Source: the human T2T-CHM13v2.0 reference genome, Homo sapiens. Taken from it: a stretch of 64,000 nt of DNA. The position numbers and the translations under genes were made by a program. The notes beneath the pieces were generated by a model. That model was not told the DNA's origin. It did not search any database and saw only the letters and a program-made list of their open reading frames with translations. The number at the start of each line of letters is the position of its first letter. The stretch's first letter is position 1. Where the stretch lies: assembly GCF_009914755.1 (NCBI RefSeq), contig NC_060945.1, one strand, 5' to 3'. Positions 3,212 through 45,050 of the stretch are shown piece after piece.

Positions 3212-3870
3212 CCACTCACTCATTCATTCATTCATCCACTAAACAGTCCTTTACTTCTTACCTACCACACATCAGGCTAATGCTAAGAACTGATACAAAG
3301 ACTCAACCACACATGATCTGTGACTTCAAGAACATAGAGATCTTATGGTACGAAAGATATGTAAAGATAAATTATAATTAATTGACACAGCATGTGCTAC
3401 TTTGAGAGAATAAACCCAAAGCTGAATTTTAATGCAACTATTAGGTTTGAATAGGCAGAAAAGCAGAGAAAAGCATCTCTGGAATGGGAACACTTGACCC
3501 AGAGAAGAAAGAATGCAAGGAGATGCCAGGTTTGGAAATGGAGAGAAGCTTAGTGCTTAGCCAAACTTGGGAAGGGGCTTCAGTGTCAACCTAAGAAATT
3601 CAGCTTCCTAAAATTGTAGTAACAACAGGAAATTTTAAGCAGGGAGATGACTTTGTGGTAGGAAAGAAAATGAACTAGAGTGGGAAGGAAGTTGGAGATA
3701 CCAATGATATAGAGACTGTCCAGAGGTAGCTGCAATATTCAAGATGAGAAATAATTGAGCCTTAAATGATCTAGGGGGAAGAAGCTACAGAACAAAAAAA
3801 CACACAAAACTATGAAAGAGAGTTGCTAGTTAGAATCTTCGTGAGCAAGGGACTAAATATATTTCAGTGG
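3212..3870 (-). mobile_element. L2 LINE 3' fragment
   Basis: (CATT)n L2 tail followed by degenerate purine-rich L2 body. Confidence 0.6.

Positions 3871-16731: not shown

Positions 16732-16775
<44 letters not shown>
16732..16775. repeat. (TATC)11 microsatellite
   Basis: Pure tetranucleotide run. Confidence 0.97.
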
Positions 16776-17970: not shown

Positions 17971-18015
<45 letters not shown>

Positions 18016-39773: not shown

Positions 39774-39965
39774 TAAAATTTTTTTAAAGTTTTATTTTAG
39801 TTTCAAGTGTACATGTGCAGGTTTTTTCTATACATAAATTGCATGTTGTGGAGGTTTGGTGTACATATTATTTCATCATCCAGGTAATAAGCATAGTACC
39901 CAAGAGGCAGTTTTTCAATCCTCCCTCTCCACCATCTACCCTCAAGAAGGCCCCAGTATCTATTG
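39774..39965 (-). mobile_element. Short L1PA15/16-like 3' end nested in L1PB
   Basis: TSD tgaaacttagtttt/tgaaactcagtttt; same family as 46008-46360. Confidence 0.85.
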
Positions 39966-41589
39966 TGAAACTCAGTTTTGTTGGGTACAAAATTCTAAGC
40001 TGATAGTTATTCTGTTCATGGAGACTAAAGATAAGACCCCAGTTCCTTTTTGCTTGTAAGGTTTCTCAGAGAAAGAATAGATTTTCCTTTACAGGTTACC
40101 TGATGCTTTTGTCTCACTGCTCTTAGAATTCTTTCCTTCATGTTGAATTTAGATAGTCTGAAGAATATATGCATTGGTGGTGTCCTTTTTGCCATGAACG
40201 TCCCAGGAGTTCTTTGAGCTTTTTGTATTTGGATGTCTAAATCTCTAGCAAGGTCAGGGAAGTTTCCCTCAATTATTCCTTCAAATAGGATTTCCAAACA
40301 TTTTGCTTTTTATTCTCCTTCAGGAAACCAGTGATTCTTAGGTTTGGCTATGTTACATAATCCTATATTTCTTGGAGACATTTTTCACTTCTGATTCTTT
40401 TCTTCTTATTTTTGTCTGATTATGTTAATTGAAAAGTCTTTCCTTTGAGTTCTGAAATCTTTTCTTCTACTTGGTGTAGTCTATAGCTAAAATTTTCCAC
40501 TGCATTTCATAGTTCCCTAAATGTATCTTTCATTTCCAGAAATTATAATTGGTTTTTCTTAAAATATCTCTTTAGAACATTTTTCATTCATATCCTGAAT
40601 TGTATTTTTAAATTTATTTATGTTGGTTTTCACCATTCTCTTGTATTCCCTTGAATAACTTAATAATCAACCTTTTGAATTCTGTGTCGCAGATTTCAAA
40701 GATATCATCTTGGTTTGGCTCCACTGTTGGGAGTAAATGTGATATTTGGGGCTGATATAGAACCCGATTTTTTCATATTGCCAGAATCATTTTTCTTGTT
40801 CCTTCTCATTTACTTACTTTTTTTCTAATTATTTTTGAATTTACTTTTTATTTGACTGGGTTTTAAATTTTTGTTCCCCCTTGAGGATGAGACTTTAACA
40901 TTTATAAGCTGTTGTCATCTACCTTTGGCTGTAGGTGTTTTCAGTGGTGAAGACTTTGTGTGAGTTTTCAGTTGTAGAAAATCTTTGTGTGATGAATTGC
41001 TCTGATGAGGATTTAGTAATGATATGCTGGATGTGTGAGCAGATTCACTGTCTCCTGTGGGGCTGAAGTGGCAGAGGTCTCAGGAAGCTTATCTCATTTC
41101 CCAGTGGTGTGCACTTTTATAAATGTTTTCCCCACTGTTTTACTCACTGGGTTGAACAGTTCAGGCTTTGGGCCATTAGGAGGTGCCCATGAGGAAAAAC
41201 TGGCCAAGGATAAAGCAGATGGGTAAGTTCAATACCCCAGTGGTGACCAGAGGTCCCAGCTGGGGAATCTCTCAGTGAAATGCACTGAGGTCTTTTCAGA
41301 AGGAAGGGAGAAAGCCACCATACCTCCCCTTCAGGAAATTCATCCCAGTTACACTCTTGACCCCATGTTCCAGCTACTCAGATTAGACAAGCACCTCTTT
41401 ATCTGCTTCATGTAGACAGGGATGGTGACTCTACGTCTTGTGCAAGCCAAGCCTGAATCAAGGGCGCTCCTACTGTGGGGATGCATCCTGCAGTGTTCCA
41501 GAAAGGCTGTCTACGGATGCACCCATGCTAAGCTCCCATGGGAGACATTCAGCTATGTCTGGAGTGGCAGACGCGGGGGAGAAGAAATC

Positions 41590-42141
41590 AGTATTAGGGT
41601 TCTCTAAAGAAGCAGAACTAATAGGATATATGTATATAAGAAAGGGAGTTTATTAGGGAGAATTGACCCACATGATCACAAGGTAAAGTCCCATGATAGG
41701 TCATCTGCAAGTTGAGGAGCAAGGAAGCCAGTGGTGGATCAGTCCAAGTCCCAAAACCTCAAAAGTAGGGAAGCCGACAGTGTGGCCTTCAGTCTGTTGT
41801 TGAAGGCCTGAGGGCCCTGGCAAACCACTAGTGTAAGTCTAAGAGTCCAAAAGCAGAACTTGCAGTCTAATGTTTGAGGGAAGGAAGCATCCAGCACAGG
41901 AGAAAGATGAAGACCGGAAGACTCAGCAAGTCAGCTCCTTCCACCTTCTCCTGCCTGCTTTATTCTAGCTGCATTGGCGGCTGATTAGATGGAGCCCACC
42001 TAGATTGAGGGTGGGTCTGCCTCTCCCAGTCCACTAACTCAAAGGTTAATCTCTTATGGCAACACCCTCACAGACACACCCAGGAGCAATAATTTGCTTC
42101 CTTCAGTCCAATCATGTTGACACACAGTATTAACCATCACA
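41590..42141 (-). mobile_element. MLT2A ERVL solo LTR nested in L1PB 5' UTR
   Basis: gtattagggttctct...cagtattaaccatcaca; near-TSD aaatc/aagtc. Confidence 0.9.
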
Positions 42142-42754
42142 AAGTCCCCTTCTCCAAGACTGTTCATGAGCACCAGGGCTGCCTAACCGTTGAGGTAGAC
42201 CCCACAAACTTTCCACACTGAGTCCAGCACTGCTGCTGTGACTGCTGAAAGAAACTTTCCACAGTGAAAAGGTAGGGACCCAAGGCCTGAAGTCTGGTTT
42301 CTTTTGTCCCATGGAATGCTCCCTTAATGTGGTACATTCCCTCTTTTTCTAGGAGTAGCAGTCCCTGAGCACCAGCCTACTGTGACTCCTGCTGCTCCTC
42401 TGGGTCTAACCACCCAGTGGGGCTGCCATACTTTGATGCTGGGAATGTCTACAAGGGATCGAGTGATGTGACCTGTCCTTCAAGTCTCCCAGCACCAGAT
42501 CTGATAGGGGTGAGAGAGGAGTCATGTAGATTCTGTGAGATTCCTTGGTTATAAATAGCCTTAGTGTTGTGGCCTTCACAAATGCCAGCTGTACTGGTCA
42601 TGTAGACAGATTCAACACCTCCTGGTTAGCCAGTGTGACCACAGTCATGTTAGTCTCTATTCAAACTGGGGTTGCACAGAAGTTTTCTCCTTTGTGAGCA
42701 TGATGTTAACGGAACCGGCTGATATTGTATTGGGTTGTGTCATTTAACCTCTAG

Positions 42755-42768
42755 CCAGGAGGTGGCGC
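42755..42768 (+). promoter_or_regulatory. Candidate CTCF motif in L1 5' UTR
   Basis: CCAGGAGGTGGCGC; motif match only. Confidence 0.45.
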
Positions 42769-43837
42769 CTGCGAAAGACCACAAGCTGTGATAGCAGCAG
42801 TGGAATTTTTGCTTTTGCTTGCCTTTTGTTACCCAAGGAGGTGCTCTGGTGTTTGAAGTGATGTGTGGGGCCACGGAACTTTCAAATGTCTCTATCCATT
42901 GTGTTACCCTACAAGGACAGGTGGAGAAGCAAAGCCCGGCGGGGGTGGGTCAGGCCGTCTGTGCTCTGGCTTCCCATGTGGAGTCACAAGCAGCTGCCCC
43001 AGTGGAAATCAGAGGTCAGTTCCCCGGCCCCTGGGGTAATGTTCCACAGAGCAGCACAGCTGCTTCTGTTGCACAGAAGAATCCACATGGGGAGTGAAGT
43101 GTAGCAGGTGGCGGTAAGCCCCACTCTGCTCCCACACACTTGGCAAGGCAGGTCTCACATCAGCAGTGTTCTGCTAGCAGCAGCTTGCTGGGTTCCAGGC
43201 AGCCTGCAGTCAGAACTTCAGATTGCCCCAGGCCATAAGCTTTCCTGACCAAGACAGAAACTGGGCTTTCAGGCCACATTCATGAAGCAGAGGCCCTCAG
43301 CTTCTGTGCCTGTGGCTACAGCACACTTCCCAGTTACCCCTCAGTTCTGGCCGATGGGGTTCATCTCCGCTGAAGATTATATCGCAAATCTCAGTTGGGA
43401 GCTTCTCTCAAAATGTGACTGCCACCTGAGTTAGCTGGCAGACTTCTGCGATCTTCCCTGTGAGATAGGGTGAGGAATGGCTTCCCTCTGTCCCTGCTGG
43501 GGCCTGGGAGAACATGCAAAGCTGTCCAAATGCTGCTCCTTCTCATATGTTCCCCACCACCCACTAAATCAGTTCCAATTCTAGATAGAGTTAAGGCCTC
43601 CCCCCGTGGCCTGGATTGCTGGGATCTTCCATGGCAGTGTTTGTCATGGTGGCATTCTCTCCCCCTTCACACTCTGGAGGCTCACAGTTTTCCACCTGGA
43701 CCATGGTATAGGCTGCTGCCCAGCACTTCTTTCAAACGGTCTGTGATTTTATTCAGCTTTTCTAAGTTCCCGTGTTGCTTCTTGGAGAAAAGTTCACAGC
43801 GTGAATCTCTGTATTTTGTCTGTCCACATGGGCTGTC

Positions 43838-43873
43838 TTAAAATTTGTGATGTCATCTCCATATGGGATGAAG
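43838..43873 (-). repeat. Perfect 36-bp inverted copy of 44870-44905 (templated insertion)
   Basis: ttaaaatttgtgatgtcatctccatatgggatgaag is the reverse complement of cttcatcccatatggagatgacatcacaaattttaa. Confidence 0.95.
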
Positions 43874-43924
43874 CATGGAGGCAGGCTAACAATGCCTCCA
43901 ATTTGCTATGGGGGGGAGAAAACT

Positions 43925-44180
43925 ATTTTTAAAATTTTTAATGAACACATAATTGTACATATTTATGGGGAGCAATGTTATATTTCAACACATGTATACA
44001 TTGTGTAGTTATCAAACCAGGGTATTTGACTGTTCATCACTTCCGATATTTATCACTTCTTTTTGGTGTAAACATACAAAACCCTTTCTTCTGGCTATTG
44101 ATATATACAATGCCTTATTGAGAACCATAGTCAACCTACTGTGAAATAGGACAACAGAATATATTCTTCCTTTGGGTGTT
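43925..44180 (-). mobile_element. L1MA 3' end
   Basis: ataattgtacatatttatgggg...catgtatacattgtgta. Confidence 0.75.
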
Positions 44181-44335
44181 ACTTCTTTTTAAAAAAATAT
44201 AAGTTGAATTTAATCTTTATTAAAGTCTTGACAGTAGAGCACTTATTAGGGATGCCAACCAGAGCTGGTAACTCTGTGGTAGGGTTTGAGGGAAGGTGTG
44301 AAGCCCCTCTTTCTCAATAATATCTGAATCACAGG

Positions 44336-44749
44336 TTTCACGCGTGTCTGTGTGAAGAGACCACCAAACAGGTTTTGTGTGAGCAACAAGGCTGTTTATT
44401 TCACCTGGGTGCAGGCAGGCTGAATCCAAAAAGAGAGTCAGTGAAGGGAGATAGGGGTGGGGCCGTTTTATAGGATTTGGGTAGGTAAAGGAAAATTACA
44501 GTCAAAGGGGGTTGTTCTTTGGCAGACAGGGGTGGGGGTCACAAGGTGCTCAGTGGGGGAGCTTTTTGAGCCAGGATGAGCCAGGAGAAGGAATTTCACA
44601 AGGTAATGTCATCAGTTAAGGCAGGAACAGGCCATTTTCACTTCTTTTGTGGTGGAATGTCATCCGTTAAGGCAGGAACCGGCCATCTGGATGTGTACGT
44701 GCAGGTCACAGGGGATATGATGGCTTAGCTTGGGCTCAGAGGCCTGACA
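44336..44749 (-). mobile_element. HERV-H LTR7 solo LTR
   Basis: Minus strand tgtcaggcctctgagcccaagctaagcc...cacgcgtgaaa; TATAAAA, AATAAA and internal direct repeats present; perfect TSD ACAGG. Confidence 0.96.
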
Positions 44750-44884
44750 ACAGGCACTTGAAATTTCCCAATAAGAATCTTTTTTTTTTTTTTGGTCACA
44801 GTCATGTTAGTTTCTATTCAAATTCTTCCTTCTCTATCCTTCCTTCCTGCCCCATCATCCTCCCCATCCCTTCATCCCATATGG

Positions 44885-45050
44885 AGATGACATCACAAAT
44901 TTTAATGTACATAGGAATCACTGGGGTGGTTTATTAGGAATGCACGTATCTGGGCCTCAGCTCTAAGGATTCCAGTTCTGTATGGGCTTAGGGTGGGACT
45001 CGGAATCTGCATTTTTACTAGACCTTATTTCACGCTAATGCAGGCTTACA
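44885..45050. mobile_element. MER5A/B hAT-Charlie MITE
   Basis: gaatcactgggg...aatgca...ctgggcc...gggtgggactcggaatctgcatttt. Confidence 0.7.

What the first reader, a model, noticed from the sequence alone, without database searches (positions are those of the whole stretch)
43827..43878. Perfect 36-bp inverted templated insertion flanked by a CATGG duplication
43838-43873 is the exact reverse complement (36/36) of 44870-44905. It follows a 6-nt linker (gctgtc) and sits between CATGG repeats at 43827-43831 and 43874-43878. The donor end overlaps an ancient MER5 element, so 44870 is the source and 43838 the copy. The result is an inverted repeat bracketing ~1 kb that contains the whole LTR7, which could form a stem-loop or prime an inversion.
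Basis: seen in the sequence. Interest (0 to 1): 0.7.

Follow-up and report, generated by a model that had tools for sequence, protein, structure and literature searches.

The report
Twin DNA-repair scars, one template zone
A 36-base piece of human chromosome 21 is present twice, flipped and 1 kb apart, with the extra copy interrupting an old L1 element, and a second 26-base patch in the same L1 matches DNA only 47 bases from the first source; both are likely harmless scars of error-prone germline DNA repair, a known kind of mutation.

Summary
The inverted pair is real: 43838-43873 is the exact reverse complement of 44870-44905, and these are the only two copies in CHM13. The left copy interrupts the 5' end of an old L1: 28 of 29 paralogs have 9 nt where the window has 53, a net gain of 44. 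The right copy runs into a MER5-like element end, so it is the source. The junction is not a clean target-site duplication plus random linker: both 5-nt pieces flanking the 36-mer re-copy the left flank in order. The 1 kb between the arms is not inverted. New: a second, direct 26-nt patch (42640-42665, 25/26 to 44797-44822) sits in the same L1. The two sources lie 47 nt apart, on either side of a strong purine/pyrimidine tract. Best reading: template switching during germline break or fork repair, the class of short local 'doublets' / repair-mediated duplications (Pace 2009). It is likely neutral, and a 36-bp arm is unlikely to drive an inversion. Age and polymorphism could not be tested. The shared source zone is the only unusual part.

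The parts
43838..43873 (+). Patch A core: 36-nt inverted copy of 44870-44905 (acceptor)
   Evidence: 36/36; only two places in CHM13 at <=3 mismatches; absent from 29 of 29 L1 paralogs aligned across the site
43833..43878 (+). Whole inserted tract A: 5-nt re-copy of 43820-43824, the 36-mer, 5-nt re-copy of 43827-43831; net +44 nt, so about 2 nt of the site were lost
   Evidence: chance that both 5-mers match the 16-nt left flank in order about 5e-5, in any order or strand about 8e-4
43820..43831 (+). Local left-flank template of the two 5-nt pieces
44870..44905 (.). Donor A; its right end (44893-44905) is part of the terminus of a MER5-like element
   Evidence: profile of 29 family copies, built without the window row, aligns across 44893-45024 (E 0.005) and 44902-45022 (E 4.5e-16)
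42640..42665 (+). Patch B: 26-nt direct copy of 44797-44822 in the same L1; net +9 nt, replacing about 17 nt
   Evidence: 25/26; two places in CHM13 at <=3 mismatches, reversed control 1; 38 of 43 paralogs have 25 nt where the window has 34; lowest-identity 26-nt window of the L1, 10/26 against mean 21.8, SD 2.4
44797..44822 (+). Donor B, right after a T14 run and 47 nt left of donor A
44823..44878 (.). Pyrimidine/purine tract between the donors (89% C+T over 56 nt) with a long-loop G-quadruplex motif on the minus strand (44850-44878)
   Evidence: joint highest 56-nt skew in the window; 1 of 10 long-loop G4 motifs in 64 kb, not among the 4 strict ones; structure not tested
39964..43915 (-). 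Old L1 element (ORF1 remnant 39964-40482, long 5' region, 5' end near 43915) that holds both patches; split by an LTR at about 41590-42141; it may extend further left
   Evidence: Pfam PF02994 E 5.9e-20, PF17490 E 2.4e-15; paralogs at 68-77%; 84% match to the paralog majority
44336..44749 (-). Solo LTR (LTR7/HERV-H type and strand by recall), 5-nt target duplication at 44331-44335 and 44750-44754
   Evidence: 40 of 40 scored places (39 besides the window's own copy) at 93-95%, 3266 candidates; flanks
44893..45024 (.). MER5-like DNA-transposon remnant (name recalled)
   Evidence: 58 motif matches genome-wide against 2 for the control; profile hits
42692..42719 (+). Candidate third patch (unproven): mutation cluster with a 14-nt two-piece match to the LTR at 44663-44683
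   Evidence: 13/26 to paralog majority; null 12 of 1117 windows for a 350-nt zone but 197 of 1117 for 3 kb

Best explanation
The 36-mer at 43838-43873 is an extra, inverted copy of 44870-44905 that interrupts the 5' end of an old L1, likely written in by template switching during germline repair of a break or stalled fork. Shown: which copy is source and which is acceptor, the net +44 nt, the two 5-nt re-copies of the left flank, and the unrearranged inner 1 kb. Inferred sequence of events: a 3' end synthesising the minus strand leftwards copied 43831-43827, jumped to the minus strand of the donor about 0.6-1 kb back (fold-back on single-stranded DNA, helped by imperfect microhomology), copied 36 nt, returned 2 nt further on, copied 43824-43820, then slipped back and joined the left arm. 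Polymerase theta or an MMBIR-type process are the likely agents; the enzyme cannot be read from sequence. Patch B (42640-42665) is a second scar of the same kind, from a source 47 nt away; a shared cause (one repair episode, or a fragile purine/pyrimidine tract used twice) is likely but not shown. No function is expected.
For: Exact and unique pair. Empty site in L1 paralogs: 28 of 29 have 9 nt against 53. The donor end belongs to an older repeat; 8 of 29 family copies align to the donor end at score >=25, all reaching into the 36-mer. Right-junction microhomeology with the donor's continuation: 8 of 400 random flanks score as well. Both 5-nt pieces match the left flank in order. No poly(A) in the insert. 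The 5' end of the L1 (43878-43909) is collinear with the body in 7 paralogs that give a separate hit there and in L022, which aligns through. Pace et al. 2009 (PMC2671141; parts 1-4 of 8 read) describe 824 such proximal duplications, distance peak about 1.2 kb, with microhomology, filler, deletion and sometimes TSD. Osia et al. 2021 (PMC8421209; introduction, part 1 of 2 of section 10, section 15) report multi-template germline events with microhomeology. The two pairs are the only two-copy short doublets among 40 candidate pairs from the window plus 80 loci.
Against: No outgroup or population allele was seen; the empty site is inferred from paralogs about 16% diverged, so a few junction bases are uncertain. 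Microhomeology was found at 1 of 4 junctions tested: left of A 94 of 400, both ends of B 400 of 400; paralog-to-donor similarity at B is at chance, 116 of 500. The donor is farther away than the 50 bp of typical polymerase-theta insertions (PMC7165422, passages) or the 100 bp of classical MMB-TI. The direction of synthesis is a choice, not a result. A and B differ in orientation, so they need different template strands.
Confidence: 0.85

Rival explanations
1. Clean staggered break: both ends kept CATGG (a true 5-nt target-site duplication), one end folded back to copy the donor, and the 6 nt are filler. Same class of event, different junction history.
For: CATGG on both sides; Pace Table 1 has microhomology+TSD+filler in 2 of 39 proximal cases; the window's L1 copy has 16 ten-base bins with deletions against paralogs in 1.7 kb, so a prior small deletion is possible.
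Against: Needs a separate 3-nt deletion at the exact site (28 of 29 paralogs have 9 nt) and leaves the match of 43833-43837 to 43820-43824 to chance (about 3% for one 5-mer).
Confidence: 0.2
2. Patches A and B are unrelated events of different age whose sources are adjacent by chance.
For: Opposite orientations; B has 1 mismatch, A none; such events number at least in the hundreds to thousands genome-wide (0.62 per Mb of TE DNA at >=50 bp), so some coincidences must exist; Pace saw no clustering (chromosome scale only).
Against: They are the only two unique short doublets in 64 kb, and none with exactly two hits was found in 260 kb of other loci (3.2-kb pieces under-detect); sources 47 nt apart on either side of the joint strongest purine/pyrimidine tract; 1 mismatch in 62 is compatible with one age.
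Confidence: 0.25
3. The inverted pair is the by-product of a 1-kb inversion made by staggered cuts, or of inverted-repeat recombination.
For: Staggered-break inversions leave inverted duplications at both ends (general knowledge).
Against: The inner segment starts with the L1 5' end in the same orientation as the L1 body on the left, and the MER5-like homology runs unbroken across 44905.
Confidence: 0.02
4. RNA-templated or L1-mediated insertion (target-primed reverse transcription) of a short local transcript.
For: A 5-nt repeat flanks the insert; an LTR and an L1 promoter are nearby.
Against: No poly(A/T) tail, no T-rich/A-rich endonuclease-type site; none of 39 proximal duplications inspected by Pace had a tail; the flank re-copy fits DNA synthesis.
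Confidence: 0.05
5. Assembly error or cell-line mutation private to CHM13.
For: 36/36 identity allows a very recent origin; no second genome was examined.
Against: A three-piece junction with a 1-kb-distant template is not a typical consensus error; the neighbouring patch B already carries a mismatch.
Confidence: 0.04

Closest known systems
Repair-mediated duplications (Pace, Sen, Batzer, Feschotte 2009, PMC2671141)
   Same: Acceptor interrupts a transposon; single donor within 5 kb (996 nt; their peak about 1.2 kb); filler, small deletion, microhomology; no poly(A).
   Different: Below their 50-bp pipeline cut-off, and not among the 30 chr21 mentions of their Table S1 (hg18 position about 27.0 Mb estimated from recalled offsets). 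They describe one acceptor with two donors, not two acceptors with adjacent donors, in the parts I read.
Doublets (Thomas et al. 2004, PMC478600; not held; seen only as cited by Pace; details recalled)
   Same: Short (<100 bp) unique exact pair about 1 kb apart.
   Different: As I recall, most doublets are on the same strand; pair A is inverted, pair B direct.
MMBIR templated insertions, 'complex' class (Osia et al. 2021, PMC8421209)
   Same: Inverted copy, several templates in one insert, microhomeology, found as germline variants.
   Different: Their search and the yeast signature use templates within 100 bp; here 996 nt (about 580 before the LTR inserted, if the patch is older than the LTR).
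Polymerase theta templated insertions (PMC7165422, passages) and yeast fold-back inversions (PMC11724301, abstract)
   Same: 3-30 bp flank-templated pieces from aborted synthesis rounds fit the two 5-nt re-copies; short inverted copies arise by fold-back.
   Different: The 36-mer comes from well beyond the 50-bp flank used to define these products.

Membership tests
Short local doublet / locally templated insertion | Short near-exact pair, unique in the genome, within a few kb | tested here: met
   A; B
Short local doublet / locally templated insertion | One copy is an insertion into otherwise continuous sequence | tested here: met
   L1 paralog empty sites: 28 of 29, 38 of 43
Short local doublet / locally templated insertion | Empty orthologous allele in an outgroup or in the population | not testable with these tools
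   no relatives are held for this genome
Repair-mediated duplication (Pace 2009) | Interrupted transposon, one donor, within 5 kb, no poly(A/T) | tested here: met
Repair-mediated duplication (Pace 2009) | Junction marks: microhomology, filler or deletion | tested here: met
   filler 5+5 nt and about 2 nt lost; microhomeology at the right junction 8 of 400
Repair-mediated duplication (Pace 2009) | Insertion of at least 50 bp (pipeline cut-off) | tested here: not met
   net 44 nt; so it works like an RD but is outside that catalogue
Classical MMB-TI (Osia 2021) | Inverted template within 100 bp | tested here: not met
   996 nt; definition
Classical MMB-TI (Osia 2021) | Microhomology at both junctions | tested here: inconclusive
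   right yes, left 94 of 400
Polymerase theta templated insertion | Template within 50 bp of the break | tested here: not met
   met by the two 5-nt pieces, not by the 36-mer; definition
Polymerase theta templated insertion | Dependence on POLQ | not testable with these tools
   historic event
L1-mediated (target-primed) insertion | Poly(A) tail and endonuclease-type site | tested here: not met
Staggered-break inversion | Segment between the inverted copies is reversed | tested here: not met

The most novel reading that the evidence does not exclude
One non-B-prone purine/pyrimidine tract (44823-44878) exposed its flanks as a shared template, and a single germline repair or break-induced-replication episode wrote two, possibly three, separate patches (43833-43878, 42640-42665, perhaps 42692-42719) into an L1 up to 2.2 kb away without any rearrangement: a copy-neutral, kilobase-scale cluster of templated insertions inherited in humans. 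If the third patch is real, the episode postdates the LTR, because it matches a base that this LTR copy shares with only 1 of 12 close paralogs.
Probability: 0.35. Interest if true: 0.55.

Novelty: new member of a known kind. Interest (0 to 1): 0.3.

Why it matters
As a single insertion it is one more of hundreds to thousands of neutral repair scars, in a gene-free stretch about 100 kb from ADAMTS1. Its value is as a well-resolved fossil: L1 paralogs give the empty site and the three-piece junction can be read base by base. If the two patches share a cause, it suggests a testable question for ape and pangenome assemblies: do short templated insertions come in clusters that reuse one exposed donor zone, and are those zones non-B DNA? 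Catalogues with a 50-bp or 100-bp cut-off would miss such cases.

Tried and rejected
Direct DNA searches of the genome with the donor region found only the window itself, and blastn/nhmmer against held loci found no MER5 relative; a 21-nt motif search was needed to collect family copies, so that set is biased towards copies like the window in the motif, not at the terminus. Inversion of the inner 1 kb: rejected. Microhomology at three of four junctions: not found. Pre-existing similarity between the L1 family and donor B: at chance. Third patch: a free search gives such a 14-nt composite in 109 of 136 L1-sized queries, so it is not claimed. A hairpin right of the insert (43876-43883 with 43893-43900; fold z -2.05) could explain 2 junction bases by snap-back, fewer than the flank re-copy explains. 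The donor minus strand has no notable fold (z +1.1; G-quadruplexes are not modelled). Pace Table S1: locus not among chr21 rows. Osia supplement: 4 'chr21' mentions (2 shown, both count tables) and no hit for my estimated coordinate prefixes; uninformative, as coordinates there may be written otherwise. No paper holds LTR7 + ADAMTS1 + chr21. Searches for a shared-donor cluster gave no listing that names one; I saw listings only, and the library lacks most subscription papers. A background survey on long stretches was not possible; it rests on the window plus 80 loci of about 3.2 kb.

Full report
Observation. The pair is as described: 43838-43873 is the exact reverse complement of 44870-44905, 996 nt apart, with CATGG at 43827-43831 and 43874-43878. 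The longer exact inverted matches in the window are a microsatellite and Alu-type pairs (Alu name recalled). Chance expectation is about 8e-13, and the 36-mer occurs at just these two places in CHM13 at up to 3 mismatches.

Which copy is new. The left copy lies about 40 nt inside the 5' end of an old minus-strand L1 (ORF1 remnants at 39964-40482, Pfam PF02994 and PF17490). A genome search with 43500-43920 returned 40 scored places of 245 candidates; the paralog matches stop at or before 43832. I aligned the 29 paralogs that came with loci: none holds the 36-mer, 28 of 29 have 9 nt between positions 43825 and 43879 where the window has 53, and one has 22. The net gain is 44 nt. On the right, a profile of 29 copies of a MER5-like family (of 58 motif matches; window row left out) covers 44902-45022 at E 4.5e-16 and, in reverse, 45024-44893 at E 0.005, so 13 nt of the 36-mer continue the element's terminus. 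Pairwise, 8 of 29 copies align to the donor end at score 25 or more, each reaching into the 36-mer.

The junction. A single-CATGG empty site would leave 6 nt, 3 short of the family. This L1 copy has 16 ten-base bins with deletions in 1.7 kb, so a prior deletion at this spot is possible but unlikely, while loss of a few bases at a repaired break is common (25 of 39 proximal cases in Pace Table 1 list a deletion). Five of the six linker bases repeat 43820-43824, and the second CATGG repeats 43827-43831: the insert reads as a re-copy of 43820-43831 in which the 36-mer replaces the middle 2 nt. The chance of both 5-mers matching the 16-nt flank in order is about 5e-5 (flank length chosen after seeing the match). 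The bases right of the 36-mer also resemble the donor's continuation (8 of 400 random flanks score as well), the left junction does not (94 of 400). This is the pattern of several short rounds of synthesis on different templates.

No inversion. The L1 5' end (43878-43909) is collinear with the L1 body and the MER5-like homology crosses 44905. The 36-bp stem forms in a single-strand fold of 43800-44940, as it must; nothing shows that it forms in cells. From general knowledge a 36-bp arm at 1 kb is well below the length that supports efficient homologous recombination. No gene is annotated in the window (hub annotation).

A second patch. 42640-42665 matches 44797-44822 at 25 of 26, same strand; these are the only two places in CHM13 at up to 3 mismatches, the reversed control giving 1; chance about 4e-5. 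It is the least family-like 26-nt window of the aligned L1 (10/26 against mean 21.8, SD 2.4; 51 paralog loci after dropping 2 duplicates); 38 of 43 paralogs have 25 nt where the window has 34 (2 duplicate rows of the 45 dropped), and their best ungapped match to the 26-mer is 16/26. So it is an acceptor too. No microhomology was found at its ends. The acceptors are 1172 nt apart, the donors 47 nt. Between the donors lies a 56-nt tract of 89% pyrimidine, joint highest skew in the window, with a long-loop G-quadruplex motif, 1 of 10 in 64 kb. In a survey of the window and 80 other loci (260,652 nt), 40 candidate pairs were found, 33 of them family-like; only these two had exactly two hits, and 5 others had 3-4 hits and short spacings of 59-165 nt. 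The short loci under-detect pairs more than 1-2 kb apart, so this is no firm base rate.

A possible third patch. The next least family-like window, 42692-42717 (13/26), has a 14-nt two-piece match to the LTR at 44663-44683, including a base found in only 1 of 12 close LTR paralogs. Random 34-nt windows do as well in 12 of 1117 cases for a 350-nt zone drawn after the fact, 60 for 1.1 kb, 197 for 3 kb and 457 for 10 kb. I do not claim it.

Age. No mismatch in 36 nt bounds the age only loosely: under about 23-51 million years at 2.2e-9 to 1e-9 per site per year; 1 in 62 for both patches gives 0.1-20 or 0.2-45 million years (match ends are set by mismatches, which biases young). Human-specific or polymorphic status is possible, not shown. 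The LTR differs by 5-7% from its nearest paralogs; its order relative to the patches is unknown.

Mechanism. Shown: direction, net size, flank re-copies, no rearrangement. Inferred: leftward synthesis of the minus strand with an excursion to single-stranded donor DNA behind it (fold-back gives the inverted copy), return, slip and join; polymerase theta or MMBIR-type synthesis. Patch B needs the other donor strand. One episode, or repeated use of a fragile tract, explains the adjacent donors better than chance (my odds: one episode 0.35, reused zone 0.4, chance 0.25).

Comparison. It works like the repair-mediated duplications of Pace et al. 2009 (PMC2671141: parts 1-4 of 8, passages, chr21 rows of Table S1) but is below their 50-bp cut-off and not in their chr21 rows. 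It fits the 'doublets' of Thomas et al. 2004 (not held; seen only as cited). It resembles the complex germline MMB-TIs of Osia et al. 2021 (PMC8421209: abstract, introduction, part 1 of 2 of section 10, section 15, one supplement search) and polymerase theta insertions (PMC7165422, passages; PMC11724301, abstract) except for the distance. Two acceptors with adjacent donors did not appear in what I read or in the listings; supplements and subscription papers that I could not see, including population variant tables, may list this site. Repeat names L1 subfamily, LTR7, MER5, MLT2 and Alu, and older-assembly coordinates, are recalled.

Verdict. A real, likely neutral templated insertion of a known kind, with a refined junction and an unnoticed twin. 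Interest 0.3; the shared-donor cluster would merit about 0.55 if apes or haplotypes show one episode.

Noticed in passing
window 42640-42665 and 44797-44822: Second templated patch, direct, 25/26, in the same L1; source 47 nt from the first source.
   Followed up: yes
window 42692-42719: Mutation cluster in the L1 with a weak two-piece match to the LTR at 44663-44683; may be a third patch.
   Followed up: partly
window 41590-42141: An LTR (MLT2-like by recall) splits the L1; paralog alignments jump across it, and near-identical 5-mers flank it.
   Followed up: partly
window 16732-16775 and 17971-18014: Two tetranucleotide microsatellites in opposite orientation 1.2 kb apart give a 44-nt perfect inverted repeat; the right one sits in an LTR-like context, so probably independent expansions.
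   Followed up: no
window 43925-44190: Fragment like an older L1 3' end directly beyond the L1 5' end; paralog L018 shows a similar neighbour.
   Followed up: no
L022 (G000:C5:106372097-106375405), at the site matching window 43826-43878: This paralog has its own 13-nt gain at the same place in the L1 5' end, next to the small family hairpin; 1 of 29.
   Followed up: no
L036:3145-3170 and 3285-3310: 26-nt inverted pair, 1 mismatch, 114 nt apart; may be a small transposon's terminal repeats or another templated copy.
   Followed up: no
G000:C21:25190614-25192097 (beyond the window, near ADAMTS1): Another copy of the same L1 5' region lies about 100 kb away, just outside the annotated 3' end of ADAMTS1.
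   Followed up: no
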